43,279 bases of DNA from Lama guanicoe (lineage: Eukaryota), in contig MU053216.1 in NCBI GenBank assembly GCA_013239625.1, forward strand, positions 2,942,943 through 2,986,221. Direction: 5' to 3'. This document shows positions 6,730-36,798 of this stretch, in pieces. The notes under the pieces are model-generated. The model was not told the origin of the DNA, did not search any database, and worked only from the letters and a program-made list of their open reading frames with translations. A program made the position numbers and the translations under genes. Each line of letters opens with the position of its first letter. The first letter of the stretch is position 1.

Positions 6730-7649
6730 GAAAGATCTGTGCACGTGATGAAGCCGGAGCACGGCATTGTGATGCAGGTATCACAGCAAGATCTCTTTAA
6801 ACTGTTAGGGGAGAATTATCATTAACCCCTTACGGACTTAACGCGCAGAACGCTTCCCATTACTCTCTAACTTTGTGCACCTATTTAAAGAAATTGCACC
6901 TGGTATGTAATGATGCGGCAACAGAGGTGCAGCTGGTGGAAGTCATCGTAAGTGACGGTCCTGTCTGCCAATTATGTCAGAGAAAAAAGCCTCGGCCGTA
7001 TGTCAAAAGACTAGCTTTTCACTTCAAACAAAACTTTCAATTCATGTAAGCGATATTTTGTATCTCTCCACTGTCCCCGCCGTTTTGATTTGTCAGTCAC
7101 TAGCGGGTTGAATCCACTCGAATAAGGTGGATTTTACTGGACTCTCTTACTAGGACGTTCCCCCAGGGCAAGCCCAGAGTAACACAACACGCATGTTTAG
7201 ATGATTTTAAGCGAACCTCAAAACCTACAGTCCCATTTCCTCTAATGCTGATTTAATCAGCACGCGGCAGGCTTCCTGGAACCCTAGTGCGCAGCATTGC
7301 TACAGCGCCTTGCGACACCCCGAGAAGCCTCTTCATTCCTGTCACCCGAGGCCTGGGGAAGGAGAACAGTAAACGCCTTGCCTACCTTCTGTGCACAAAG
7401 CCAGGAGATCTCCTTCCTCGCAAAAGGCTGATACACTTGTCCCAAGCAGATAATTGACTCATTGGAAACTAAAGAAAAAGACCTCAAACTAGAACCACAA
7501 GGACAAAGAACACAGAAAGGTCTTGTAACTTGAAAGAAAAAGTCAGCAAAAACGTCAAGGTTCTTTGGAAGAAGAGAGAAGTTAACCTCCCCGCAGAGAT
7601 CTTACTCCTTTCTTTGTAAGCAGACTCAACACCCCCTGAAACTCTCTTG

Positions 7650-7886
7650 ATTGCATATAAAAGACCTGAAGCTGGCAGAAGTGAGCTCTCAGCTTCCTTG
7701 ACTTGACTTGTTCTTCTGGATTCCACCCTTGGGCTCTCCTTGGAGCCCCGCTCCCCCACCCAATCAGGCCGCTTGGGAGCCAACAGCTGTGCTGAGTGCT
7801 CACTGCTGACACAACAGTGTGAGCTCTGTGGTGATTTCCATCCCTTCCCAGATTCTCAGAAGCCACCTGACTTGGAGCTGGCCACC
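7650..7886 (+). promoter_or_regulatory. Proximal promoter / 5' UTR of ATP6V1G3
   Basis: TATAAAA at 7656-7662, CCAAT at 7760-7764 and Kozak GCCACC at 7881-7886 upstream of exon 1. The TSS cannot be determined from sequence. Confidence 0.5.
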
Positions 7887-7968
7887 ACGGCCAGCCAGTC
7901 CCAGGGGATCCACCAGCTCCTCCAGGCAGAGAAAAGGACCAAGGACAAGCTCGAGGAAGCCAAAAGGA
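7887..7968 (+). CDS. ATP6V1G3: ATP6V1G3 coding exon 1 (start codon reads ACG)
   Basis: GCCACC-ACG-GCC AGC CAG TCC CAG GGG ATC CAC CAG...; 27 codons + 1 nt, then donor GTAAGC at 7969. Confidence 0.93.
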
Positions 7969-8699
7969 GTAAGCCCCCTCCTGTCTGCCCTGTGAGGGAC
8001 TGGTCACAAAACGGATGAGGGGCGTGCAGGAGGAGGAGCGCGGACCTCTCGAACAGGTTACTCCCTGGTTCCGCCACGCTCTCGGGGAGACCGTGGCCAG
8101 CTCACTAAAGCTTCCCAGTTGCATGTCTCCCATCACTAGAGTGGGGATGAATTTCCCCAGCCCAGATCTTTTGGCCACATCGCACTCCGTGGGAAATGAT
8201 GATGGACGCTGAAGTTGCAGAGACTCGGGCTTGAGCTTTGCCTCCAACTTCCCTAAAGCCGCCACGCCTCGGTGTCTCAATGTTGCAGAATGGTTAAGAA
8301 AGGACAGGCCACTTCCAGACCGAAGTGACGGACTAGTGAGCGAGCTTGGGCAAGTGTCTTAGCCTCTGTAGGCATCGGTTTCTGTTCTGCACATTGTGAC
8401 AAAGTTACATTTGTTCTCCCTTTCTTGATGGTTTTTAATGTCCAACCTTTAAAAATATTTCCATTTTATTCTCACTTTCTGATTTCTTGTTATTTGGTCA
8501 TTCATCTACGTGCTTACCCAGAGAATGTTTCTTTGACATTCACAGCAACCACACGGATTAGGCATAATAACTATATTTCCATTTCACTTATGCAGAAATT
8601 GAGAGTCTATAGTTTGCCGACAGCCATATTTTAAAAAGCAGAAAATAGGGTGCCAGGCCCATGCTCATCTTGTTTACTTACTTACTCCTTATCTTATTT

Positions 8700-9687: not shown

Positions 9688-9830
9688 TTCTTTAATTTTT
9701 GAGGGGGAGGGAGGTAATTAGATGTATTTACTTATTTATTTTTTTAATGGAGGGACTGGGGATTGAACCCAGGACCTACTGCATGCTAAGCACCTGCTCT
9801 ACCACTGAGCTATACCCCACCCTTCCCCCT
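9688..9830 (-). mobile_element. tRNA-derived SINE (camelid vic-1-like) with 12-bp target-site duplication
   Basis: Minus strand reads gtatagctcagtggtagag (A box)...gggttcaatcccc (B box) followed by an A-rich tail; TSD tatctctcattt at 9676-9687 and 9831-9842. Confidence 0.9.
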
Positions 9831-10805
9831 TATCTCTCATTTCTCAGTCATTAGAGAGGCACTGGGAATCAGGCAAGTCATTTGGAGGTGGGAACCTCTC
9901 AGAACAATCTAACCTCAGCTTCCACAGGAAAGGTAGAAGACAGGCTATTTTTCCCTCCCCTTGGTCAGTATGCTGTGTTCGGGCAATCTCTCCTCGGAAG
10001 TCAGTACCGGAAGGTCCATACTGTATTATTTGTATACACAATGTTCATTTTGTTGACCAGTCACTTAAAATACTTATGTACTTTTTTTTCTTGGTCTTTG
10101 TTCATAAATCTTTGAACAAATATCAACCAGTAATAGTAAATACCCTGGCCTTAAAAATATTTTGGAAAATATCTTTCCAACTGTTGTTTCAACCAGTGAG
10201 CTCTGCGCTCACTTTCTCAGAGGAAGCCCGTCCTCGGCCTCAGGGAGCACGGGCTCGGGGGCCGTTTTCACCGGATAGACGGGGGCCGTTCCCTGCCCAG
10301 ACGCCACACGCAGGGGCGGCTAGGTGACAGCTCCGGGGCCCGTGCCCGTCACTCGCTTCTTCAGCTCGCCGCGGCCAAGTGCAATGCTGCCTTGTGTACC
10401 TGCTATTTCGTAGCTTTTCTGCTATTTCACTATTTTTTTTAATTTTATTTATGTGTTTAATTCAGTAAGTACTTGTTGGGTGCCAGTGATTTTCAGGCTG
10501 CTCTGGTATATTCACTGATGAGAAGACCTTCCTCAGAAGACTCCCCCACGAGACAGATGTGGAAATGCCATGCGAGGTACAGAGAGCCGTCATCTTTGTA
10601 AACCCATAGATTTACTCGCTTTTTTTCCAAAAAGAGATTCATTTGAAAATCTGACACAGAGGCAGAACAGAGACTCAGAACGGCAACTAACCGATCGCAG
10701 CAGCGACACACTTGCAGGCTTAGCTTCACCATCTCCTTCCTAAATCCGTTTATTTACAAGACTTTCAGAACTTACCCTGCTAGAGCAAGGCTTGTGAGTG
10801 TATTT

Positions 10806-10962
10806 GTAAAATTTAATTAATTAATCAAATTTTTTTTGGCAGGGAGAGGTAATTAGGTTTATTTATTCATTTATTTATTTCTTAATGGCACTACTGGGGA
10901 TGGAACCCAGGACCTGTTGCGCGCTAAGCATGCACTCTGCCGCTGAACTAGACCCTTCCCCC
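10806..10962 (-). mobile_element. tRNA-derived SINE (vic-1-like)
   Basis: Same head (gaacccaggacc...gctaagcatgcactct) and aggtaattaggttt tail motif. Confidence 0.85.
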
Positions 10963-12599
10963 TGTGAAATATATTTTAAAAAGGGAGAAATGGAGGGAGG
11001 GAGAGAAAGACAGAGAGAGAAAAAATAGTAAGTCACATGTTAATCATTTTAGAAAAACACAAGGTTAACATAGTGCTAGTATGTACATATGATGTTGCAA
11101 AACTATGAACATATTCCATTCAGGAGGACAGCCTCAGATCCCAGGGAAGTTACTCCACAGTCCTGTACGTGTGTAAATGCTTTGCCTTTCGGGACACAGA
11201 CAAGGGTGTTAGGGGCTCTCCTGAAGGCTGTTAGAGCCGTGGAAATGCAATCACAGGTCCCTGCTCTCAAGACTCCAGCTGCAGAGAGGTGGGACTGGCA
11301 GGCTGGTTTGCTGTTGGGGGGGCGTGGTACGGAAGTGCGGATATCCAACAGACTCGCAAAGCTGGGCTGTGAGGCAGCAGAGTAGAAAGAGCACCGGCTT
11401 TTTCCTTTTATTTCTTTGTTTAAGTTACTGAGCATCTCTGAGCTTCCATCTTTGCTTTTTTTAAAAAAGAAAACAGAAATATACAGAAGAATAAAATATT
11501 ATATGTAATATTTAATATGTGTGACCAGAATGCTTTAAGGATCAGAAAAATGGTACCTAAGGTGGTAGAGTAAAAACTAATGAGTTAGTCTTCTTTTTAA
11601 TTTATACAGTATGTATACTTGTATGTGACTGTAGGTAAAAGCAACAGAAGACTGGAGTAGGAAACCAGAAACAACAGTCTCGTTTCATCCTTTTTTACAG
11701 CGGCTGCAAGTTCTCGGCCAACTTTTCTGTTTTCTGTTGGGGGTGGGGGGGCTCAACTTTTCTTCCAGTGAGGAGACCAGCGCTGCTTCTAGTAAAATGA
11801 GTGAAAGAACTCAGACGTTCGCCTCTATTCACTGAGCGTGGATTGAATGGTATTTACTAGTTAAGACACTCACCCAAATTTTTATGTGTAAAACTGTTTG
11901 AATTTAGGTGGAATTGCAGTAGGTTGGCATTATTTTTTATTATTTTTGTTTACCTCTTGCTACGGCATTATTTTAATTTATCTCACTTGAAGTTAACACC
12001 TTTTGCTTAAAATTGTGCATCCTTCAAAACATAAAAGTGAGTGTATTGGTCGACGCAAGTTACACTTTCACAACAGAGCATCGGACCTGCCCTGGAGCTC
12101 CAGCTTTGGGGAAATTACCTGCATCTTTGATCAGAATTAGAATAGGAAGTCAGGGCCCCCTCATCCATGTCTTCTCTGAAACACGTGATTTTTTTTTTTT
12201 TACTTTAAGTTACACCTTTTAAGAGCACAGTGTCTATTTCATTTACACCCACTGCAAACCTGGGAGGCTCTACCGTTCGGCCCTAATGCTGTCATTTGAA
12301 CTGTTCCACGTCACATAAAGAATCCATATTCCTGACATATTTCCAAACGTGCACCGTGGCCTCCCCCACAAATTAACACTCCACCTGTCTACTCTGGCAG
12401 CTGCGGTAAATAACGTTTGTGTTTAACCCAAAATTACAATTTGCATTATGGGATACAGATCAAAAGATGCGGTAAACATAAATGTTCAAATCTGGGCATG
12501 AGAAACACTGAACAAGCAGGTATAAGAAAGAGGTTCTGAAAGCTCTGGGCAGTCTTAATAAAAGCGAGGGTCGCGACCCTGGGGTGTCTGACCCAGACA

Positions 12600-15909: not shown

Positions 15910-17835
15910 CTGACGCTGTTCTTCCTGTTCTCATCCTCCCAACGTCAGCGCCCCCCTGCGTCCGCCTCGGCTGAGACCTTAGCCCTCTTTCCTGCTCATT
16001 CTGTGCACGCCCCTTGACTTTGTCCCAAACCCACTGCGCCGCCTCGAGCACGCCAGACCCAGATGACACCAAAGCAGAGCTCGTCTCCGTTTCACACCTT
16101 TCTCCTGGATTCCAGACTTGCCCGTCCGGTTGCCCTCTGGGCATCTCCCTGTGGGTGACCTCAGGGAAGCCCGCAGGGGCTTTTTTGGGTGACAGCCCGG
16201 AGCTCTCTCCTCAACCCCCGCCTTCCTCACTGCCTTCCTTCTTAGCAAACGGCCCCGGGAATCGGTCTTTCTTTCCTAATAATGATTGGAAATTGTTGAA
16301 CATTCTTCATCAAGCACTATGTATGTGTTGCAAATCCTTCCGATGACTCTGCAGTACAGCATTAAATCTGTTTTACAGGTGAGAAAGCTCAGGTTCGGAA
16401 ACTACCTTGCTCGAGGTTACAAAGCTTCTAACGTTTTACTGTAGTGGTGCCCAGGGTACAGTTCTGATTTCTTTCTGAAACGATCAATGAAGCCTCTCTT
16501 CCCTTCAGAAAAGGGATCCAGAAGCAGGTTAGCAATCCCAGCATGGAGCGGTGCTCATAAGCATCTTGGGGCCCTCAGCCCCTCGGCTTTTTCTCACCAA
16601 GAAGCCGAGCGGAACCCGGCGCGCAGCCCTGCCCACTCCCCCAGCCCCGGGAACAGAGCTCAGTTCTAACCTGCCCTAAATTGATTTTTTAATCCTTTCC
16701 CCACAATCACCTGGAAATCAGTCCAAACACCTTCCTTTCCTAATTTTCCTCCCACAGAACACCCTATGGAATGTATCTCAGCAACGGCTCGTTGAAAGCA
16801 TGGTGTAGCAGACCGAACGTCTAAAAGCGAATGATTTAAAGGGGAACTATTTATAAAGAGTTCCCAGAAACAACTGACGCTGTTCTTCCTGTTCTCATCC
16901 TCCCAACGTCGGCGCCCCCCGCCCCCGCCTCGGCTGAGACCTTAGCCCTCTTTCCTGCTCATTCTGTGCAGGCCCCTTGACTTTGTCCCAAACCCACTGC
17001 GCCGCCTCGAGCACGCCAGACCCAGATGACGCCAAAGCAGAGCTCGTCTCCGTTTCACACCTTTCTCCTGGATTCCAGACTTGCCCGTCCGGTTGCCCTC
17101 TGGGCATCTCCCTGTGGGTGACCTCAGGGAAGCCCGCAGGGGCTTTTTTGGGTGACAGCCCGGAGCTCTCTCCTCAACCCCCTCCTTCCTCACTGCCTTC
17201 CTTCTTAGCAAATGGTCCCGGGAATCGGTCTTTCTTTCCTAATAATGATTGGAAATTGTTGAACATTCTTCATCAAGCACTATGTATGTGTTGCAAATCC
17301 TTCCGATGACTCTGCAGTACAGCATTAAATCTGTTTTACAGGTGAGAAAGCTCAGGTTCGGAAACTACCTTGCTCGAGGTTACAAAGCTTCTAACGTTTT
17401 ACTGTAGTGGTGCCCAGGGTACAGTTCTGATTTCTTTCTGAAACGATCAATGAAGCCTCTCTTCCCTTCAGAAAAGGGATCCAGAAGCAGGTTAGCAATC
17501 CCAGCATGGAGCGGTGCTCATAAGCATCTTGGGGCCCTCAGCCCCTCGGCTTTTTCTCACCAAGAAGCCGAGCGGAACCCGGCGCGCAGCCCTGCCCACT
17601 CCCCCAGCCCCGGGAACAGAGCTCAGTTCTAACCTGCCCTAAATTGATTTTTTAATCCTTTCCCCACAATCACCTGGAAATCAGTCCAAACACCTTCCTT
17701 TCCTAATTTTCCTCCCACAGAACACCCTATGGAATGTATCTCAGCAACGGCTCGTTGAAAGCAGGGTGTAGCAGACCGAACGTCTAAAAGCGAATGATTT
17801 AAAGGGGAACTATTTATAAAGAGTTCCCAGAAACA
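15910..17835 (+). repeat. Tandem duplication: 15910-16872 (963 bp) and 16874-17835 (962 bp), about 99% identical
   Basis: Both copies start ctgacgctgttcttcc and end gagttcccagaaaca; the ORF track shows near-identical ORF pairs offset by 963. Confidence 0.97.
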
Positions 17836-18440: not shown

Positions 18441-18540
18441 GGGGTGGGGGGGTGTAGCTCAGTGGTAGAGAGCGCGCTTAGCTTGCACGAGGTCCTGCCT
18501 TCAGTCCCCAGTACCTCCGCTAAAAAAACAAACAAAAAAC
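18441..18540 (+). mobile_element. tRNA-derived SINE (vic-1-like), short form
   Basis: ggtgtagctcagtggtagagagcgcgcttagcttgcacgaggtcctg...ccccagtacctcc plus A-rich tail. Confidence 0.88.
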
Positions 18541-20685
18541 TTTCTAACGTAATAAAATCATGACGCACGAGTTGTCTCATTTTCTAAACCAAAAATCAGG
18601 ACATTTGGCCTCGTGTGACCTTATAGGAAATTGGGGACCAATATGTGACTGTTCTATTTAAAATCTGGACTGTCCCAAAAGGTCACCCCTGTGTTTGAGA
18701 GAGAAAGTATTGAGAAATAGGAACGTGATCTCATTTGGGTTCCCAGCAGCCACGCTTTTAATGCTTAAAGAAGGAAGAGGTGCAATTGTAAAATCTGGAA
18801 GGTTCCCATGCAGACGCAGAAGCCAGCAGCGGTCAGGCCATGCGGGCTGGCTGGTGCCCTGCGCCTCCCCGCCGCGGGCCGCCCGAGGTCCCCGTGGCTC
18901 CCCTGTTTAACTGAATGAGAACCAGCAGGTGACCGGCGCCACACGGGGGAAGCAGGCGCACTCGGAGCTCACGCAGCCTCCGAAGAGGGGCGCCAGCTTC
19001 TGCGCAGGGGCCGGGCACGCAGCGCTTTTCCTATTATTAGTTGTTGTTGTTTTTTTTAATGTGCTCGAGTTGCAACTTGGAAACAAGTACTTTTACACAA
19101 TATGCAATTAAGATGGAAAGTAATGATGTTTTATGTGCTTTTTGCTGAATCAGATAGTGTCCGACCACTCGTTACGTAACCCACAGCACGTTCCGACTAA
19201 GAAATCTTCTCGCCTCTTACATACATTTTTGTCCTCATGTTAGTGACAAGCAGGGATAAGAAAGTGAGCTGGGGGCTAGGAATGGTTTTCCTTGCCAACA
19301 TTTCGCCTGTTTGTCCTGTGAACGGCGTGTGTGTGGTTGCCAGGAAGTGGTCAGAGCTCCAGAGGGGAAGAAAAGTGTACATACAAGATGGTAACGAGCA
19401 TGAATTGAGGAGGAAAAAGGAAAGCGTTACTGGTAACGTTCCATTAAGGCTCAGTCATTGGAAGAACACTCATTTTCACTAGACCTTGGATTCTAAGGAC
19501 AATTAAGACAGAGCTAAATATGCGTTGTGAATGACGTCTGCTCAGTCCCGCTCAAGGGTAAGAGGTACTAAAAGAGACACATTTTAGTGTGTAACACAGT
19601 GAGTGTCTCTTGTCCACACATATACAGCGACTCGCAAAGCAACTTCTGTGCAGCAGGAAGAGAAATTTAGGACTCATCTCTGCTCAAATGCAACAAAGTT
19701 ACACAAAAACAAAGCCATGTAAACCTGTGTATCTAGATGACAGATAAGGTTTATGTTAAGATTTTCTTTCATGCTACTTAATGAAAACACATTTAGTTCC
19801 AAGTCTACATAGTGCAACAAACCATTGACAAAAATTATAAACCAAAGCTTAAGAGATCTTACCAGAAGAAAAAAATGATGTTAAACGGGCAAATGAATCA
19901 AGGCATTTAACTAAAATAGAAAGACAATAGATTCTGAAGAAAATTAGTTTCAATACAGTTCAGAGATTTTTTAAAGTTTTAATGATCACAGAGCGTTAGT
20001 ACCTAGCTTCCCCGAAGGTGGTGGGTGGTAAGGGCTGAGCAGTGATTAACATGACTCTGTCACTCCCCCCCAATACTTCCTCTGGTTGTCAAAAAAGTCA
20101 TGTGCTTACCTAATGATCTCCACAGTTTTTCACATTTTTCTGAAACTTTCATCTACCGTGCTATCTGCTGGCTTAAGGCTTACACCTTTGCTCTTAATAA
20201 AAGAAAAGAGAGCTACTTAACTAAATCTCCTAACCATTAAAACCGTTGGTTTTACAACCACTTTCAAGTCCCCCTCAGAGAAAGCGACTACAAAAAATGT
20301 CTACTTTGATGTGCTTTGGGGCTTAATCAGACATTCTAGAGTCAACACACGGTAAGGAAAACACCCCAATAAAATGCTTTAAAAAACTGTAAGTTGGTTT
20401 GAGAGAGTCTGAGCCACATGTTTGTAGTGCCGGTTGGAGGTCTGCCAGCGTTAAACAGATTCATTTGGTGTGGACTGAAGGATTCCTGGCAGCAAATCAG
20501 GACAGCAGATCTGACCAAATAATGTCTTTCTGAGTAAGTGACAGCTCAGATCTGCTCTCTGGCTGTTACTCCTGTGATAGTAAACGGGAAGATATTTCAT
20601 TTAAACATGTGAGTGTAAAAGAAAGTTGTCATTTCCGTGTTCGAAAGAATCCAGTTGAAAAAACAAGGAATTTTTCAGTATTGCT

Positions 20686-20926
20686 TGTTTCTAAACAAAG
20701 GGCATCATTTGAGGCGGGGGGGGGGAGCATCTGAAAATCATGTAGACCTCACCTGTATTTCTAAAAAGCAAGTTTGAAATTCTGTATGCTGAAGAGAAAT
20801 CTGTCATGTTTCTAAACAAAGGGCATCATTTGAGGCGGGGGGGTGGAGCATCTGAAAATCATGTAGACCTCACCTGTATTTCTAAAAAGCAAGTTTGAAA
20901 TTCTGTATGCTGAAGAGAAATCTGTC
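20686..20926 (+). repeat. Tandem duplication of 120 bp (20686-20805 and 20807-20926)
   Basis: tgtttctaaacaaagggc...gagaaatctgtc occurs twice with one G/T mismatch in the G-run. Confidence 0.97.
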
Positions 20927-20952
20927 CTTTCTGTGCCACTGTTAATTTTCAG

Positions 20953-21176
20953 GAAAAGCCAAGCCAAAATGATCAAAGTCGGTATTGTTGCAAATTGCTG
21001 CAAAGGCTTCTGGTATTCCGTTACGATTTCCTTTTCAACTGGATGGCTCCCTTCAACCAGTCTTTAATGAAAATGTAAAGAAATGCTTTTTCATACAGGC
21101 CAAGGAGGAAGCGATGGCAGAGACTGACCAGTACAGGATGCAGAGAGATCAGGCATTCCGGCTGAAACACGCTAAG
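20953..21176 (+). CDS. ATP6V1G3: ATP6V1G3 coding exon 2, interrupted by an insertion at 20967-21096 (in-frame TGA at 20970-20972)
   Basis: Acceptor ttttcag at 20946-20952, then GA AAA GCC AAG. Coding resumes CAG GCC AAG GAG GAA GCG ATG at 21096 and ends at donor GTGAGC at 21177. Confidence 0.9.
20967..21096 (+). repeat. 130-bp direct copy of intron-2 segment 21647-21776 inserted in exon 2
   Basis: aaatgatcaaagtc...aaatgctttttcatac at both sites, offset 680 bp, 4 mismatches. Confidence 0.95.
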
Positions 21177-22429
21177 GTGAGCGAGACGGCTGGCACCGAT
21201 TTCCAAGCAGCTTAGATGGTAAGACACTAACATCCATGAACAGTGATAAGATCTTCATCTTCATAAGGTCCGACGCAGGATATCAGGAGAGAACATATCG
21301 GATGGAGCAAATAGACTTCACCATGGCTGAACCGCAAATCAAATCAGAAACATCCCAGAATCACCGATTTGACGTTTTCACATTCGTCATAGAGACTGTC
21401 AATCCATAGTTCTTATCTAATACATCGTATGTGTTAAAAATCATATTCTCAGATATACAAGTTGATGGAATTGGTTAGTTTTATTCCTACTACAGATGAT
21501 TGACTAACACATTTTAGTAAGAAAAAAATACAGAGAACTTTTTTTTTGTCTATTAATGTTTACTAGTAGAATCAATAAAAAGTGTTGAACAATGTTCTAC
21601 AGTGAGCTTGTTAGGCCAAATTTCCTTTGGTTAATTCAAGATTTATAAATGATCAAAGTCTATATTGTTGCAAATTGCTGCAAAGGCTTCTGGTATTCCG
21701 TTACGATTTCCTTTTCAACTGGCTGGCTCCCTTCAACCAATCTTTAATGAAAATGTAAAGAAATGCTTTTTCATACGTTAGCGTTTAAAAAATATCTGCA
21801 GTTTACAGTAAAATACATAAGTGCAGGAATTTTTCAGAGCTGATTTGCAACATGAACTAAAAGGAATTATTAAATTCCGTGTGCCATAACTAAAGTTGAT
21901 GTATTTTCTCTTTGGCAAAAACACAAATAAAGGTCTGTGCAGAAGCCTGACACGGCAAGATGAACTGCAAGCAGTTTGTAAATCTCTCCGTTTACAGCTT
22001 TGATTTTAGTGGGAGTCAATGCAGAGCTTGCGTTAGATCAGGTGAATGAGATCCCACGATAGGAAAAACTTTTCCAACGGGCTGTTTCTTGAAACAAAAG
22101 GGCCTTAGAATAAAGTGGACCACTCAGCAAAAATAAATTCTTCTTATCGATATTTGGAAAAAGGAATCATAGACTCCCCAGTCCACACAAACACATACGC
22201 CCCCCACAACTGCCCTTCGGCTCTCTCTCTGACCTGTGGGCTCTGAGTGTCATGCACTTGCCTTTGAAAGTGCAGATATTTTTTAAATGCTAGTGTAGGG
22301 AACAGCATGTCTTTATATTTTGTATGAAAGTTTTATTGAGTGGAGCCAGCTAGTTGAAAAGAAAATCATAAGGAAATACCAGAAGACACTATCAGCAATT
22401 GGCAACAATGTCTACTTTGGTCATTTGTA

Positions 22430-22855
22430 ACATATTCTACTCCCTTTGTCTCTACTTGTTCTATTCTAGCCACATGTGTCTCCCTGCTCTTCCCCAGGTG
22501 AACTGAACAGGCCACTGCCACAGGGCCTTTGCATATGCTGTAGCCACTCCCAGGAATCCTCTTCTTTCACAGACATTCATTGCTCTTTGATCTCTGTTCA
22601 GTTAGTTGTTGGCTCTTGTTCTCGATCACCTTATCTAAGATTGTGTCTCTCATAAAAAAAGAAAGTACTAATTATAGTCATAGCATTTATCACTACAGGA
22701 TATACTATACATTCACATTTTTTGCTTATTGATTATCTTTCCTTCTGGACTGTAAGCACCAAAATGGCAGGTTCTTTATTTTGTTCCCTGTTGCTTTCCT
22801 AGACGTTACTGCCCCATTGTAAATACACAGTAAGTATTCATTGAAAGAATGAGTA
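22430..22855 (+). mobile_element. L2 LINE 3' end
   Basis: ctgccacagggcctttgcatatgctgt...ggactgtaagcacc...taagtattcattgaaagaatga. Confidence 0.75.
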
Positions 22856-22999: not shown

Positions 23000-23177
23000 C
23001 TTCTTTAATTAATATACTTTTTAATATTTTATTTTATTTATTTTTTGTTTTTGTTTTGGGGAGAAGTAATTAGGTTTATTTATTCACTTACTTATTTTAA
23101 TGGAAATACTGGGGGTTGAACCCAGGACCTTGTGCACGCTAAGCATGTGTTCTACCACTGAGCTACACTTTCTCCCC
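23000..23177 (-). mobile_element. tRNA-derived SINE (vic-1-like)
   Basis: tactgggggttgaacccaggaccttgtgcacgctaagcatgtgttctaccactgagctac with a T-rich tail upstream on the + strand. Confidence 0.88.
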
Positions 23178-24605
23178 ATATTATTATTTTTTTTAAATAA
23201 TTACAAAACTGACCACAATTTTAGAAAGTGGTTGGGTTTAATCTCTTGAAATATTACGTCTCATGAAGAATCTCATAAGATGTAAGTCTGGCTCATGGTA
23301 TTTATTCTCTGAGCTGGAGAATAATTAAAACTCCTCACCGCTCTCAGAATGAGAGCTCTAAGCCAATTTAACAGCTAGTTGATCAAAATCTCACATAGGA
23401 AGGTCAACGCATTCGGGCCTCTGTGGCTTCAAGCATATTGTGAAGCGTGAGCCCAGCGCCTTCCCGCCACGGCCCGCGGGGGCCACACGCCGCTGTCCCG
23501 CGCGGAGCTCGTGGGCGCTCACCCGGGGCTCGGAGGAGCTCCCGGAGGAGCCCCGGGAAACCAGTTTCCCACCTGCTGTGGCTGCTGCCCCGCAATGCTA
23601 CTCTTTTGGGTGCTTCTTAGCTCTTGCTAATGTATGTTTTTTCCACACCCCCTGACTTATTTTCCACCCCCCTCCTTTATCAGTAGAAGTGAGTATCCCA
23701 AGGTGGGCTGTATATCAAGGAATATTTTTATAACAAAGATTTACTTTGCTATCTCCTGCTGTACACTTATCCCTTATTTCACTTTGTCTCTTGCTAAACT
23801 GCAGCACCACTCAGCAATAAGAAGGATCAAACGAATGATACACGTGACAGCTGGGGTGATTCTAAGAAGAAGCTCTGCTGAGGGAAGAAGGCGGCCGTTC
23901 ACACTGCAGGGCTCCGTTTCTGTGATTCTCTCAGAAAGACAAAACCGCGGTGATGGAGCTCCTGCGGCCATCCTGCAGGACCTCGGAAAGTCCTGCAAAA
24001 TAACATCCTCTACTGGAGAAAACAGTACTTGGCCGAAAAGAGATCTGGACTGCAGTGGGAAGTTGTATCTACTGTTAATGCAAGTAAAAGTTAGACGGAC
24101 CATGAATCTGAACAAAAGATCTAAAAAATGTCTTTTTTCTTTCTTTCTAAATTCCTATCATGAAAGCATTTTTGTTTCCTTGAAGCAACCACAAGTTGAG
24201 AATGCAAGACTGTGTGAGACCTGACCCTCTGGTTTCCCTTAAATTGGAACATTTGAACAACTTACAAGGAAACTTATTGAACGCTGAAAGATTTCGCCAA
24301 CACCATCAGTCATTACTCTGCAAAGCTGCACACAGCGGCCGCAGCACTGAAGGGTGGGAAATTTGCCTGGAGAAGTCCTCAAACGGCACCCTTCGGCCAA
24401 ACATACCAAGTTCCATGTCACATAATTATCGACTTCTAATTTATATAGTGTCCCAAATACTCAGGCAGCAGGCTTCGGCCGACGAGAGCAGTAGAACACA
24501 GGTAATCAGTTCTCCCTGATGCCTGGTGAGCAGCTCATTCTATTCTGTTCAACAGGGATGCACTGAGCACCTACTATGTGCCAAGCAGTGTTCGAGGCAC
24601 TTATC

Positions 24606-24762
24606 TTTTTTTTTTAATTATTTAGTTAGTTAGTTAGGGTTTTTTGTGGAGGGGATAATTAGGTTATTTACTTAGTTTTTTTTTTTTAACAGAGGTACTG
24701 GGGTTGGAACCCAGGACCTTGTGCATGCTAAGAACATGCTCTACCATTAAGCTATATCCTCC
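24606..24762 (-). mobile_element. tRNA-derived SINE (vic-1-like)
   Basis: gaggtactggggttggaacccaggaccttgtgcatgctaag...ctaccattaagctata; atcttttt flanks both sides. Confidence 0.88.
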
Positions 24763-25878
24763 ATCTTTTTCTTTTCTTTTTTAATACTATAGAAAAATTT
24801 ACGTCACTTATATGGGTCATTGGTGGCTCATATTACAATTCTATTGGGCAGCACCACTCTGCATACTTTGCACACATGACTCTGGTTGACTTTTTACAGC
24901 AGTCCCATCAAATGGGTGATGTTCTGATGTTATCCGTATTTAAAAAATAAAGAACATAAGGTTGAGATGAACTTTTCCAAAGTCCTTCAGGATAGCTGCA
25001 GTAATCTAGCCTAAAAATAACCATTTTTAACACTGCTCCTAAGAAAAATAGATAATCATTTCGTAACAGTTTGTCTTTTAAATTTTTCACCACTTAAGAC
25101 ATTGTATTTAGGAAAAGTAATTTTTTTTTTTGAGTTTGGTAGAATCTCACTTAAGATATTGGATTTAGAGGAAAAATCTGATTTTGGTAGAACTATTTTG
25201 GTAAGTAGTTCTCTATTTTCAAACTTCCTTGTAGCAAGGGAAATTTTATCCAAATGTCTGTTGTTCCTGCATGCATACTTACCAAAATGTAATTTTATGA
25301 AAGCTATTTGATGTCTTAGAAGCTGTATCTCCTCAAAATGATTTTCTTTGAACTAGGAAGCCCCTCTTGCCCAGACTGTAAACAGGAAAGAACCGGAACC
25401 GGACAGCCTCAACTGCTTTCTATTTCAAATTCAGGGCCCAGAAAGATCCTGTGGATTCTAGGATTTAGAACAGTCTAACAACCTGGCAGTAAAAATCAGT
25501 CATTAGTGGAGTCCTCTTGGATTAAATTAAATGCATACCTTCCCTAAACACTCACAGGAGAGAAAAACAAACAAACAAAAACCAGCTGTGTCACCTAATG
25601 ATGCCCTGTTCAAGAAAGGCTGAGTTTACGAAGGAGATAAATTAGGAGCTGGCTGTTGGCTTCAGCAGTGGATAATTTCACAGAGGGTTTCACTGAAGAA
25701 TCCTTTTAAATTGGTAACTCTCCTGGTAAAATTGCATTTCAATCTTGTCATTCCTTGACAGGGAGGCTAAGAGACAGAGGATGAAGTAGGAAAGACCAGA
25801 ATCACTGCCAATGACAGAACAACCAGAAAGATGAGTTACGCTGAGTCTAGAATCATCATGGAACCAAGTGGACAAGTA

Positions 25879-27066: not shown

Positions 27067-27324
27067 ACGATGGGCTCCCAGAGCAATCTCTCCAGAGAGA
27101 TAGAAGCACAGACACTGAGGAAGATAAAAGAGCTGGATGGGAGCCACAGCACGTCCATGGAAAGTGTCATCAACCGGCTTTTGAGCATCGTCTGTGATGT
27201 GAAACCGGAAATCCACTCGAACTACAGAGTCACCAACTACACAAGCACTCCGTTGTTCAATAAACAGTGTCTACATGCCACCTCATTGCTATGGCTCCTG
27301 TTTATAGTAAGAGATGTGACATAG
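27067..27324 (+). CDS. ATP6V1G3: ATP6V1G3 coding exon 3; ancestral stop position (27238-27240) reads TAC and the frame continues to TAG at 27322-27324
   Basis: Acceptor ctgttctggtag ends at 27066; 57 codons align to the G3 C-terminus ending ..NYRVTN; matches ORF track 27070..27324. Confidence 0.92.
   Translation, partial: TMGSQSNLSREIEAQTLRKIKELDGSHSTSMESVINRLLSIVCDVKPEIHSNYRVTNYTSTPLFNKQCLHATSLLWLLFIVRDVT
27259..27264 (+). terminator. Candidate polyadenylation signal AATAAA (a second one lies at 27655-27660)
   Basis: Canonical hexamer 18 nt after the ancestral stop position; usage unknown. Confidence 0.35.
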
Positions 27325-27756
27325 ATGTCTTAAATTTGCTAGGCACCTATGGGTTTTAATGTGATGTGGTCCATACATGAGGACTGTATTTAAAAGCCAA
27401 CCAACAAAAAGTTGTTAAAGCTTTCCTGGTCACAGGTACGACCTTGTCGCTTAACTTGGAGCAAGTCAAGAAGGCAGGGTAACATATTTTGGGACACCTG
27501 AACGAAAAAACATGGACCCAACCATTTTTTAGTGAGTGGGTGTTGCTTTTTTAAATTTCTTCTCCTTTCTATCAATTTAGAAAATATATTCTTCATTTCA
27601 GTTGCTAAAAGATTATCTTTAAGGGTGATATCATCATTTCTCCAATAGATACACAATAAACATGTGCTCAGGGTTTTATTTAACTCATTAATCAGTGAGG
27701 AAACCAGTAAGATGTTACCACTAGTTCAAAGAAAACACTAAGAACTTCATAGAGAA

Positions 27757-33482: not shown

Positions 33483-33539
33483 AAGACATTACTTAGAATC
33501 TCTTACCGGCCTGCCAGAAGGACAGAGAAACCCCAAACG

Positions 33540-34630
33540 TGGCGCTGATTACGAGGCAGCCTGACGAACATGGGAGGGCGGGGGTTGCTACACCCGGAGA
33601 GGGGCGCGTGCACGAAGCGCGGAGATGGAGACAGCGGAAGGGCTGCACTTGGGGAGAAGAAGGCTCGCCTTGCTGTCGGCGAGGCTGGCAGGGCCGCGTG
33701 CGAAGGCCCTTTGAGGCCGTACTAAGAAGTCTGTTCTTTACCTGCAAGGGAGCAGGAGCCACCGAGCAGCTGTAAGCAAGAGTCACAACGAGAGCTGCGC
33801 ACGCGCAGCTCAGGGCGCGCCAAGGGCGTTAGGCAAGGGGCCAGCCCGGAGGCCGGGCACCTGGGGAGCAGCCGGCAGAAGAGTCGAGGCCCCGCGAGCA
33901 GGGGGAGGTTAGCGGAAGCAGCGCCCCGGAAGGGGCTGGGTCACGCAGGGCCCCGTCCCTGGCGGGAAATCTGGCTGTTCCCAATGACGCGGTGACCTTG
34001 GCGGGATCTGAGTAGGGGTGACGTCATCTAACGTCAGCGTTCAACGGGTCACGAGGGCGGCTGCGTTTGCCACATGTGACCCTAACCTTGCCCTTGTCTT
34101 CGTCCTTCCTTCCCTCCCTCCCTCCGTGCCTCCCTCTCCGCCCGGGCCTGGGTCGCGTCCGCAGATCTGTTAACCCGTTCGCTTCGCTCTCTCCGCTCAG
34201 TCCCACGCCCGCTGCGCGGCCTCCTCCGCGCGTGCGCGCTGGATCCCAGACAGAGCGCGCTGCCCTGAAGGCCGCTGCGCCCGCCTCCACGAGCCGCCTT
34301 CCCCCGATGCCACTCCCGGGGAACCGCCTATTTACCCTCCGCTGTTGTGTCTGTGTCTCTCTGTTCCCCCGCCACAAGCGGAATGCATGCTCTTTGCTTT
34401 CCTCCTCCCCGCGCGCTGTCTGCACCACCGCCCGGGAGCTCCGGCGTGCGGGTGGGTGGACGGGGCTCGCTCCAGCGTTTGCGCTCGGACCCTTTCATCC
34501 CGGAGCCCGAAGAGGGCACGGCTGCTTCCGAGTCCGCTTCAGGACAGTGAGCTCTGGGGAAGCGCGTACTTCTGCGCCGTGAAGGTTACACACCGTGTCA
34601 CTTTGACAAGGGACTTGTGACGCCCGGCCC
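33540..34630. promoter_or_regulatory. Orphan CpG-island-like region with NRF1, CCAAT and CRE motifs
   Basis: Dense CpG by eye; TGCGCACGCGCA at 33796-33807, CCAAT near 33981, TGACGTCA at 34019-34026; no associated gene recognised. Confidence 0.55.
33560..33830 (-). mobile_element. L2 fragment, CpG-enriched
   Basis: gaggctggcagggcc...aggccctttgaggccgtactaagaagtctg...ggagccaccgagcagctgtaagcaagagtcaca parallels the L2 consensus as recalled. Confidence 0.55.
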
Positions 34631-36798
34631 TCTACACCCAAACCACTCTTGATAGCACAGCAACACGGTGACAGTGACCTCGCTCTCTCACCCTGTCCAA
34701 GGCAGAGCCCTTCCTTTCTTACCTGCAAAGTTACTTGCAATTAATTAGCCGCTCGGTGTCTGCACCGATCCCACCCCTGGGCTGTTGCCGCCCGCGCCGC
34801 TTTCTCAAGACCCCCCTTTCCTCCTGAAGACACCCTCCCAGGTCCCCAACACACAAGGAGCGCAGGCGGTGGACAATTCTCTGTATTCTCAGACTTGCTC
34901 TTTTGCTGCCAAATGTCCCTCCATGTTCCTACGTGGCAGCTGATAATAGCCCTGAGTTCATGGATTTAATCAATCGTGGGGCTTCTGGAGTCTGAACGAG
35001 GAACGGGCTAGTCACACCGCCGCTGCGGTCCAGAACCGGAGCTGCTGAGAATGGCTTGGTCAGGCCTTAGAGACCCTCCGCCCGGCAGGGACGCCCACCG
35101 CCCACGGCACGCCCAGCATCCCCGGGACCTGGCTGCCCCAGGAGATAAGGGAGATGTGAACGGAGACGGGGACTCCGCAACGTGGAGTCTCCGGTATCGT
35201 CCTCATGGAAGAAGGGAAGAAGAAAGAAAGAAAAAGGAGGGAAGGCAGCAGCATAGACGTTAAAGTGCGAGCTGAGTTTTTCCCGGTTAGAAGTCATCTT
35301 CGTTGTTTCTGAGAGAGAATTTCTCTTCTAAGAAGCTCATTCTGGGGTAGGATTTCCTGGGTTTTCTGTCTCATCCCATTCATCACATTGTGGTGAATGG
35401 CGAAGATGTCAATGTGGCCCCAAAAGCAACACCGTTCAGTGACCACCATAGGTGATAACATAGTAACTTTTGATAAGCTAATCCTTCAAAAAGACTGCAT
35501 ATTACAAAACAAAAACTGAATTTGAAATGTTTTCTAATACTTAGCATTTAATAGCGGTAACTTTGGATTTGGCAGCAACTATTAAAGCTCAAATAAAACA
35601 CTGGAGCAGGAATTTAAAGATATTAGAATTGCATAAAGTCTACACTATTTCTAGTTTGTACCACAATTTTGACAATTATTTTACATGTGCTTCTGTGGAG
35701 TTTCATCATTTCCTGTTGTTGGATAAGTGGAATTTTAGTTTTTAGTGGGGAAATATTGTGAATAAAAGCAGTATTCAAGAAAAACATCTTTAGAAATTGA
35801 TTCTTAATACAGGTGGAGGAAAAAATCTTACATTCAGCTAATATTTATCTTAATAATCTCAGTATGAAAAATGGCATATCAGAACTAGGCTGAGTATTGG
35901 GGGAAACAAGAAAAGCATATTGAGGAATTTTGAATAATATTACATAGCATTAGTCATTTTTTATATGGTTATTAGCCATGGTAGATAGAAATCAATTAAA
36001 GACCACCTGAAACCAATATAATATTGTAAATCAACTATACTTCAATTTAAAGAACAGATTTGCAGATTACCATATGGGCACCAGGAGGCGTTAACGCTGA
36101 GAAAGCTGGGGAAATATCTAAGGAGGGCTTAATAATGAAGGAAGTCGTGTACTTAAATAAATATGCAAACAAACAAAAGAAATAAGTTAAAGATGACTAA
36201 AATGAAGGTTGAATAAGAAAATAATGTACTTATCAGAGAAAGGGGAATCTAAAAATAGAGCTTTCGAGAAAGATACAGTTTTATTTTACACATACTGAGA
36301 GTGAAATCATCTCAGAACAATCAAGTGGAAATATCCAACAAGAAATTTAACAATAAGACTCAAAATTGGACCACCATCGGAAGTAACATTAATAGCACTT
36401 ATTTTGCTTAGCGCTTAGCATGTCCGGGTAATGGTTTAAGTGCTCTCCAGAGGTTACCTCTATTCTAAACGGAACTACAGGCCAAGATCGGAGCATCTCA
36501 AGGTCTGATGTCAGGAGAAAATCAACAGTCACTTCAGGACACCTCGATGAACTGGTACCAATCATTTTGTCCCCATGCATCATCTACTCAAGGTTAAACA
36601 TCAGAAGTTCCCCCGAGGAAAACCAAGGTCGTGTTAAGAAGTTAGAGGAATGCGTGTCAGGCATGAAAAACAACAGAGCTCACTGCTGAAGGCGACTGTC
36701 CCAACAGCAACGACAGCTGAGCTTTACTGAGCACTTACTCTGCTGGACGTGCTACCTGTGGGTGGAGATTCTCACAACAAATCTCAGATGCTGCCACT

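What the first reader, a model, noticed from the sequence alone, without database searches (positions are those of the whole stretch)
20964..21098. Exon 2 broken by a templated insertion copied from its own downstream intron
Seen: 20967-21096 is a same-orientation copy of 21647-21776 with 4 mismatches in 130 bp. It has no TSD or poly-A and replaces about three codons (RLK in the human protein as recalled). Net gain is 123 nt, so the frame is preserved and the only stop is TGA at 20970-20972. Known: local templated insertion plus a small deletion is the signature of Pol theta-mediated end joining or template-switch repair. The four mismatches argue for a real, not brand-new event and give an internal clock for the inactivation.
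Basis: partly seen in the sequence, partly recalled or inferred. Interest (0 to 1): 0.7.

Follow-up and report, generated by a model that had tools for sequence, protein, structure and literature searches.

The report
Repair scar in decaying camelid gene
A real 130-base piece of intron was copied into an exon of the kidney proton-pump gene ATP6V1G3 in South American camelids, but camels without this insertion already lack the gene's normal start and stop codons, so it looks like a second hit on a gene already decaying in camelids.

Summary
20967-21096 copies 21647-21776 (126/130, same strand) into exon 2 of ATP6V1G3, adds 123 nt and gives an in-frame TGA. It is real: contigs of 3 of 4 laid runs cross the right junction, the fourth enters the left one, none skips the insert, and the alpaca RefSeq model carries the insert's tail. 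Dromedary and wild-camel models have an intact exon 2, so the event is New World and post-dates the ~16 Ma split. It does not date the inactivation. The window and all four camelid models with those ends share a lost ATG (ACG in the window) and a lost stop. Post-split changes hit conserved sites in both lineages (6 of 9, against 13 of 71 in intact pairs). The four-mismatch clock is weak: one mismatch is a donor-side variant. The donor is one arm of an older 164-bp inverted repeat. Microhomology-driven template switching fits best; 130 nt is long for Pol theta. One copy mutation creates an in-frame acceptor that would bypass the stop (untested). The scar is ordinary; the apparent camelid-wide G3 loss was not found in five literature searches.

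The parts
7887..7968 (+). ATP6V1G3 exon 1 coding part (82 nt, phase 1). The first codon is ACG instead of ATG; no in-frame upstream ATG before a stop at 7704
   Evidence: Thr at this position also in camel and alpaca models
20953..21176 (+). Exon 2, 224 nt (101 + 123); native AG acceptor and GT donor intact
20964..20966 (+). Junction bases CCA (Pro where orthologues have Arg32): possibly a 3-4 nt patch templated from the flanking GCCAA, or a substitution in codon 32
   Evidence: sequence; Arg in 63 of 64 G3 sequences; patch origin is inference
20967..21096 (+). Inserted copy of intron-2 sequence (130 nt, probably 131 with 21097)
20970..20972 (+). In-frame TGA brought in by the insert, 204 nt upstream of the last exon junction (NMD-predicted by the usual 50-55 nt rule, recalled)
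21059..21060 (+). New AG made by the copy-side change 21060 A>G: a cryptic acceptor (CAG|T, 10 of 15 pyrimidines) in frame with exon 1 and downstream of the stop; use not shown
21096..21176 (+). Native 3' part of exon 2 (Gln35 onward)
21647..21776 (+). Donor in intron 2, starting 550 nt downstream of the right junction
21643..21804 (+). Left arm of an older inverted repeat; contains the donor
22267..22430 (-). Right arm of the inverted repeat (80% to the left arm, 462-nt spacer); used to polarise the mismatches
27067..27237 (+). Exon 3 coding core (57 codons), frame intact
27238..27324 (+). Lost stop (TAC at 27238-40) and 28-codon read-through to TAG at 27322-24; the same extension is in the camel models
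20686..20926 (+). 121-bp tandem duplication just upstream of exon 2; single copy in run X14, so a private allele or an assembly artefact; not part of the insertion

Best explanation
A germline break or stalled fork in ATP6V1G3 exon 2 was repaired by microhomology-driven template switching in the South American camelid lineage, after the split from camels. The left end, possibly after a 3-4 nt extension on the flanking GCCAA, primed on intron 2 about 550 nt downstream at the start of an inverted-repeat arm. It copied 130-131 nt in direct orientation and rejoined the exon through 1-2 nt (CA), losing 8-9 nt (codons 32-34). The insert adds a premature stop. The gene had already lost its ATG and its stop codon in the camelid common ancestor and was under relaxed selection, so the insertion was fixed as a neutral second hit. 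Shown: copy, donor, junctions, presence in other individuals, absence in camel models, shared earlier lesions. Inferred: the repair pathway, the role of the hairpin, the patch origin of CCA, and that the camel allele is non-functional.
For: Copy and donor. Right junction in a 625-nt contig (21068-21692) in X1, X4 and X7; left junction entered by 8 nt in X14; no joint skips the insert in 4 of 4 runs. Contig ends sit exactly k-1 letters into the repeat, as a true two-copy repeat predicts. The alpaca model XP_031531738.2 contains KCFLIQ, the insert's tail, with the 21090 C allele seen in X14. Dromedary (2 models) and C. ferus have KAKRLRQ. Thr at Met1 in P0012, P0035, P0036 and the window, while 128 of 133 proteins with the motif have Met; read-through past residue 118 in P0002, P0012, P0035, P0036 and the window. 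Post-split changes at >=90% conserved sites: 6 of 9 vs 13 of 71 in 8 intact pairs, p=0.005; dromedary alone 3 of 4, p=0.03; without codon 32, 5 of 8, p=0.013; other stem changes 0 of 7. Core vs translated flanks 9/115 vs 5/86. The inverted repeat folds at z=-11.1. Germline template-switch insertions at quasi-palindromes are described (PMC8421209, section 10 part 1).
Against: No camel DNA was available, so junction microhomology and deletion size rest on protein models. No contig meets the tool's 31-letter bridging rule (29 letters right, 8 left). Counts for relaxed selection are small, the core/flank ratio interval is 0.41-5.11, and the camel excess in relative-rate tests is significant against whales (p 0.003-0.035) but not against hippo, cattle or sheep (p 0.14-0.52). 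The camel frame is open from the Thr codon to the new stop, and the ACG in the window sits in a strong Kozak-like context (consensus recalled). 130 nt is long for Pol theta.
Confidence: 0.68

Rival explanations
1. The insertion is the killing lesion: the ancestral camelid gene still made some G3 from the ACG codon with a longer tail, camels still do, and the insertion ended this only in the New World lineage.
For: The camel frame is open through all three exons (P0012, P0035). Splice sites are intact in the window. The ACG context is Kozak-like (recalled). No frameshift is seen in camels after about 16 My. Stem changes other than Met1 avoid conserved sites (0 of 7).
Against: The dromedary branch has 3 of 4 changes at >=90% conserved sites and the fourth (R56W) at 89%. 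The two branches changed about equally (4 vs 5). The stop was lost as well as the start.
Confidence: 0.14
2. The patch was RNA-derived (class 2 TSIP type): a fragment of the gene's own pre-mRNA intron was reverse-transcribed or used directly to mend the break.
For: The insert is sense-oriented, has no TSD or poly-A and comes with a microdeletion: class 2 features (PMC5110952 passages).
Against: TSIP donors are described as distant. A donor 550 nt away is most simply DNA in cis. G3 is described as kidney-specific (PMC4595830 passage), so germline pre-mRNA is unlikely (inference).
Confidence: 0.07
3. Compensated allele: after the insertion, 21060 A>G created an in-frame acceptor that skips the stop, and a G3 five residues longer, started at ACG, is still made in South American camelids.
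For: The acceptor is in frame, has no stop downstream and has the same pyrimidine count as the native acceptor (10/15). The chance that at least one of 3 substitutions does this is 10% (YAG) or 4% (with the pyrimidine filter, chosen after the fact). The G is seen in X1, X4 and X14.
Against: The native acceptor upstream is intact. The alpaca model does not use this AG but a poor one at 21081 plus a micro-exon not found in the window at up to 4 mismatches. The ATG is still missing. Further changes at invariant sites continue (A18T in the window only, Y88H). X7's collapsed contig has the donor letters.
Confidence: 0.05
4. The segment belongs to a dispersed repeat or DNA-transposon family whose arm was inserted or converted here from another locus.
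For: The donor is one arm of a 164-bp inverted repeat, a shape that some non-autonomous transposons have. The whole genome could not be searched.
Against: The copy is 97% like the adjacent donor and 77% like the other arm. No off-target contig was listed on the arms at 80% likeness in 4 runs (9 pieces were not shown and a filter drops records, so this is weak). No TSD at the repeat's outer ends. No meaningful Pfam hit in 12 stop-free frames and no meaningful Rfam hit.
Confidence: 0.04
5. Assembly artefact: a misplaced read segment, like the neighbouring tandem duplication may be.
For: The 121-bp duplication ending 40 nt upstream of the insert is single-copy in X14, and a 963-bp 99% duplication lies nearby.
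Against: Junction contigs occur in four runs of four studies, and an alpaca annotation that differs from the window at 3 of 123 residues carries the insert's tail.
Confidence: 0.02

Closest known systems
Pol theta-mediated end joining (TMEJ/MMEJ) templated insertions (PMC12426944, section 6 read)
   Same: Insert copied from DNA near the break, small deletion, 1-2 nt microhomology, possible small patch from the flank.
   Different: 130 nt against the usual <25 bp; template 550 nt away; Pol theta dependence not testable.
MMBIR/FoSTeS-type germline templated insertions, including direct duplications at quasi-palindromes (PMC8421209, abstract and section 10 part 1 read)
   Same: Nearby template, direct orientation, donor inside a quasi-palindrome, microhomology at a junction, germline.
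   Different: Here the copy lands 550-680 nt from the donor in a coding exon of a non-human lineage and appears widespread or fixed; the paper's size and distance distributions were not read.
Class 2 templated sequence insertion polymorphisms (PMC5110952, passages read)
   Same: No TSD, no poly-A, microdeletion.
   Different: The donor is local rather than distant; there is no sign of an RNA origin.
Unitary pseudogene / lineage-specific gene loss in mammals (general knowledge)
   Same: Orthologous three-exon locus with shared early lesions and lineage-specific later ones; relaxed constraint.
   Different: The earliest lesions are a start loss to a near-cognate codon and a stop loss, which leave an open frame in camels, so databases still list camelid G3 proteins.

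Membership tests
TMEJ templated insertion | Insert templated from sequence flanking the break | tested here: met
   Donor 550 nt downstream, 126/130; farther than the usual immediate flank
TMEJ templated insertion | Accompanying small deletion | tested here: met
   RLR of the camel protein missing, net +123 nt; 8-9 nt by inference from protein
TMEJ templated insertion | Microhomology at junctions | tested here: inconclusive
   Right: C, or CA with the 21777 A allele. Left: needs outgroup DNA, which was not obtained
TMEJ templated insertion | Short length (generally <25 bp) | tested here: not met
   130-131 nt against PMC12426944
TMEJ templated insertion | Dependence on Pol theta | not testable with these tools
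   Ancient germline event
MMBIR/template-switch insertion | Nearby template, here inside a quasi-palindrome | tested here: met
   Inverted repeat of 164 bp at 80%; fold z=-11.1
MMBIR/template-switch insertion | Replicative origin at a broken or stalled fork | not testable with these tools
   No sequence feature separates it from end joining in a single event
L1-mediated insertion / class 1 TSIP | TSD of 5 bp or more | tested here: not met
   The only 6-bp match is the native AK...AK repeat of the exon
L1-mediated insertion / class 1 TSIP | Poly-A tail | tested here: not met
   The insert runs straight into exon sequence
Class 2 TSIP | Donor from a distant region | tested here: not met
   Donor is in the same gene
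Class 2 TSIP | RNA intermediate | not testable with these tools
   The insert crosses no splice junction
Mobile element insertion | Multi-copy in the genome | tested here: inconclusive
   3 copies in the window; no genome held; no off-target piece listed on the arms in 4 runs, weak
Unitary pseudogene (camelid ATP6V1G3) | Orthologous locus with exon structure kept | tested here: met
   Three exons match Pfam V-ATPase_G in order; best hits are camelid G3; flanking-gene synteny not tested
Unitary pseudogene (camelid ATP6V1G3) | Disabling lesions | tested here: met
   Start loss, stop loss, and in the New World lineage a premature stop
Unitary pseudogene (camelid ATP6V1G3) | Relaxed selection | tested here: met
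   6 of 9 vs 13 of 71 changes at conserved sites, p=0.005; protein-level only, small counts, relative-rate tests mixed
Unitary pseudogene (camelid ATP6V1G3) | No functional protein and no intact duplicate | not testable with these tools
   No kidney RNA or protein data laid; no genome held; no Met-starting camelid G3 among the hits listed

The most novel reading that the evidence does not exclude
Camelid G3 is not dead. It is translated from an ACG start with an extended tail, and in South American camelids a single later substitution inside the repair insert (21060 A>G) created an in-frame acceptor that splices out the insert's stop and exonises its last 36 nt. That would be a natural case of a repair scar rescued by splice-site birth in a non-AUG gene.
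Probability: 0.05. Interest if true: 0.75.

Novelty: new member of a known kind. Interest (0 to 1): 0.4.

Why it matters
The scar is a clear natural example of a known repair outcome and a usable presence/absence marker for South American camelids. The larger point is the gene. G3 is one of the kidney-specific V-ATPase isoforms (PMC4595830 passage) and is expressed in intercalated cells (PMC10776631 passages). If all camelids lost it shortly before the Old/New World split, they are a natural knockout showing that G1 can stand in for acid secretion, in a family known for unusual kidney physiology. It also means the camelid G3 proteins in RefSeq, GenBank and UniRef are probably annotation work-arounds of a pseudogene.

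Tried and rejected
Own-genome search: none held, so copy number and synteny are open. Outgroup DNA from metagenome contigs: 1 of 499 pattern matches confirmed, a 37% distant G subunit, no use. Mismatch clock: rejected; 4/130, 3/131 and 1/131 give roughly 19, 14 and 5 My on a rate taken from only 5 amino-acid differences in translated flanks, and the intervals exceed the phylogenetic bracket. TSD reading of GCCAAG: rejected as native. Intron-gain rescue with a donor inside exon 2: every GT lies after the TGA, and the two GC sites before it are poor (3-4 of 9 matches to the recalled consensus). Acceptors at 21081 and 21099 shift the frame relative to exon 1. Gene conversion between copy and donor, suggested by collapsed contigs with copy letters (X1, X4) or donor letters (X7): depths are 20.6, 14.9 and 57.4 against 17.6, 17.1 and 44.2 if the copies differ and 24.6, 23.8 and 61.6 if identical; bubble removal by the assembler explains X1 and X4, and X7 stays unresolved. 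Missing flanks in X1, X4 and X7 are not evidence (record filter). Identity of the inverted repeat: Rfam gave one chance-level hit (E=0.36), Pfam one (E=0.058) in 12 frames, the ESM Atlas nothing above 0.78. The representative-protein search with the insert-containing frame gave 3 hits: two G3 fragments and one Ig-repeat protein judged chance; none carries the insert peptide. The alpaca model's micro-exon was not found in window intron 1 at up to 4 mismatches. Earlier findings: three look-ups returned nothing.

Full report
Observation. The segment 20967-21096 matches 21647-21776 on the same strand at 126 of 130 bases without gaps (E=5.5e-57 in a self-BLAST of the window). It lies in a 224-nt exon (20953-21176) with intact AG and GT ends, and the frame meets one stop, TGA 20970-72. 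Three exon pieces match Pfam V-ATPase_G in order, at profile positions 1-25, 33-58 and 60-105. The best database hits are camelid ATP6V1G3 models. The window differs from the alpaca model at 3 of 123 compared residues and from each camel model at 9 of 123, so it comes from a South American camelid. No whole genome is held.

Is it real? Twenty of 24 listed runs hold part of 20560-22500, 14 of them half the sampled words or more, under five organism codes. I laid 4 of those 14, one each from four organism codes and four studies, all as contigs. X1, X4 and X7 each have a 625-nt contig from 21068 to 21692. It starts 29 letters inside the insert, crosses the right junction and ends 30 letters into the donor's shared part, which is where a k=31 graph must break if the repeat has two copies. 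X14 has a contig that crosses the left junction by 8 letters, up to a GATC site that exists only because of the insert, and separate copy-type (21013-21089) and donor-type (21693-21770) contigs. No run shows a joint that skips the insert. Independent support comes from the alpaca RefSeq model XP_031531738.2, which reads KCFLIQAKEE where the window's insert tail reads KCFFIQAKEE; the F/L difference is the 21090 T>C variant seen in X14. An artefact is therefore very unlikely, although the 121-bp tandem duplication just upstream is single-copy in X14 and may itself be one.

When did it happen? Two dromedary models and one wild-camel model have an uninterrupted KAKRLRQAKEE. The insertion is thus absent from camels and arose after the Camelini-Lamini split, given as 16.3 (9.4-25.3) Ma in PMC6899786 (passage) and ~16.3 Ma in PMC12337305 (passages). 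Its presence under four organism codes and in alpaca suggests it is widespread or fixed among New World camelids; the codes do not name the species. The mismatch clock is poor. The inverted arm (below) assigns three mismatches to the copy and one, 21661, to the donor, and donor 21661 reads G like the copy in 3 of 3 runs that cover it. Three of 131 has a Poisson interval of 0.5-6.7%, wider than the phylogenetic bracket. X7's collapsed contig carries donor letters at a depth (57.4) nearer identical copies (61.6) than differing ones (44.2), so two of the three may be polymorphic; assembler bubble removal is an alternative.

Did it kill the gene? Probably not. Exon 1 begins ACG, with no ATG in 7600-7970. 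The dromedary RefSeq, wild-camel and alpaca models all show Thr at that position, whereas 128 of 133 fetched proteins with the N-terminal motif have Met; the five exceptions are these three, the window, and a wombat model that I did not examine further. The stop after residue 118 is TAC in the window, and camels share the same 28-residue extension (1 difference in 28); the alpaca model also reads past it. Both lesions therefore predate the insertion. Since the split, the window lineage changed 5 residues and the dromedary 4 among 115 compared, against 5 differences in 86 translated flanking codons (ratio 1.35, interval 0.41-5.11). Six of the 9 changes fall at sites at least 90% conserved among 64 full-length G3 sequences, against 13 of 71 in 8 intact pairs (10 pairs planned, 2 skipped because members were outside the set; p=0.005). 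The dromedary alone gives 3 of 4 (p=0.03), and leaving out junction codon 32 gives 5 of 8 (p=0.013). Seven other camelid-shared changes fall at variable sites (0 of 7; Met1 and position 75 were left out), so constraint seems to have lapsed late on the camelid stem. Against this: the counts are small, the 64 sequences are related, relative-rate tests are significant only against whales (p 0.003-0.035) and not against hippo, cattle or sheep (p 0.14-0.52), and the camel frame remains open from a near-cognate codon in a Kozak-like context (consensus recalled).

Mechanism. The donor starts 4 nt inside one arm of an older inverted repeat, 21643-21804 and 22267-22430 (164 bp, 80%, 462-nt spacer), which folds far better than shuffles (z=-11.1, 0 of 20). 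The anatomy is: exon to GCCAAG, then CCA, then 130-131 nt of donor, then CAG GCC AAG. Contig ends point to A at donor 21777 in other animals, as in the inverted arm, which gives CA microhomology at the right junction. CCA replaces an Arg found in 63 of 64 sequences and repeats the adjacent GCCAA, so it may be a short first extension on the flank; camel DNA is needed to test this. GCCAAG on both sides is native (K-A-K and Q-A-K), not a TSD. I infer a break or stalled fork, one or two rounds of priming on minimal homology, copying from the hairpin-prone intron, and rejoining with loss of 8-9 nt. A review describes such patchwork inserts as a Pol theta signature but says they are generally under 25 bp (PMC12426944, section 6). 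MMBIR-type germline insertions with a direct template inside a quasi-palindrome were the most abundant class in two human genomes (PMC8421209, abstract and section 10 part 1). It works like these; the pathway cannot be assigned. Class 2 TSIPs share the junction features but have distant donors (PMC5110952 passages). A transposon identity for the repeat found no support but is not excluded without a genome.

A possible bypass. The copy-side change 21060 A>G creates CAG|T at 21061. It is the only one of eight AGs tested after the native acceptor that keeps the frame with exon 1; it lies past the stop and has 10 of 15 pyrimidines, like the native acceptor. Its use would give a product five residues longer. 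The chance that one of three substitutions makes such a site is 10%, or 4% with a filter chosen after the fact. The native acceptor is intact, the ATG is still absent, and the alpaca model uses a poorer AG at 21081 with a micro-exon that I could not find in the window. No RNA was laid. I give this reading 5%.

Novelty. Searches of the open library for ATP6V1G3 with pseudogene (28 papers), camel (0), gene loss (3) and lost/mammals/lineage/inactivat (2), and for camelid gene loss with kidney (2), showed no report of this loss. I saw listings only for these, except passages of PMC10776631 and PMC2835735. Subscription papers and supplementary gene-loss tables were not searched and may list it. Three look-ups in earlier findings returned nothing.

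Verdict. The insertion is real and is a new member of a known kind of repair scar. The more interesting result is the apparent camelid-wide decay of a kidney-specific V-ATPase subunit (PMC4595830 passage). Interest 0.4.

Noticed in passing
window 20686-20926: 121-bp tandem duplication (one mismatch, in a G run) ending 26 nt before the exon 2 acceptor; run X14 has a single copy at unique-sequence depth, so it is a private allele or a false duplication.
   Followed up: partly
window 15910-17835: 963-bp tandem duplication at 99% (9 mismatches, 1 gap) in intron 1; may be two haplotypes assembled in tandem.
   Followed up: no
window 27259-27264: AATAAA lies upstream of the new stop at 27322; if this signal is used the mRNA would have no stop codon. 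Further signals at 27655, 27934 and 27945.
   Followed up: no
window 20969-21098: The insert also brings an ATG (20969), a weak GT (20978) and, with the exon's CAG, an AG (21097-98); splicing these would join three codons in frame to Ala36 onward. A truncated product, probably without meaning.
   Followed up: partly
P0036 (alpaca), P0035, P0012, and 124-aa mammalian isoforms: Camelid database proteins start at distant upstream ATGs or are marked partial, working around the lost start. Many 124-aa G3 isoforms carry unrelated 6-residue inserts at the exon 1/2 junction, which looks like annotation forced by the human isoform.
   Followed up: partly
window 9696-9844, 10831-10982, 18446-18535 (-), 23048-23197, 24637-24786: Five copies of a short SINE-like repeat; the name Vic-1 is recalled, not tested (one search gave a listing only).
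   Followed up: no
window 21523-21557: A 35-nt A-rich piece matches a contig from elsewhere in X4 (5 other letters), with the same loose end in X14; probably a repeat fragment.
   Followed up: no
window 33500-35200: GC-rich, CpG-rich stretch (GC 0.62 at 34001-35000) about 6 kb downstream of exon 3; possibly a regulatory island.
   Followed up: no
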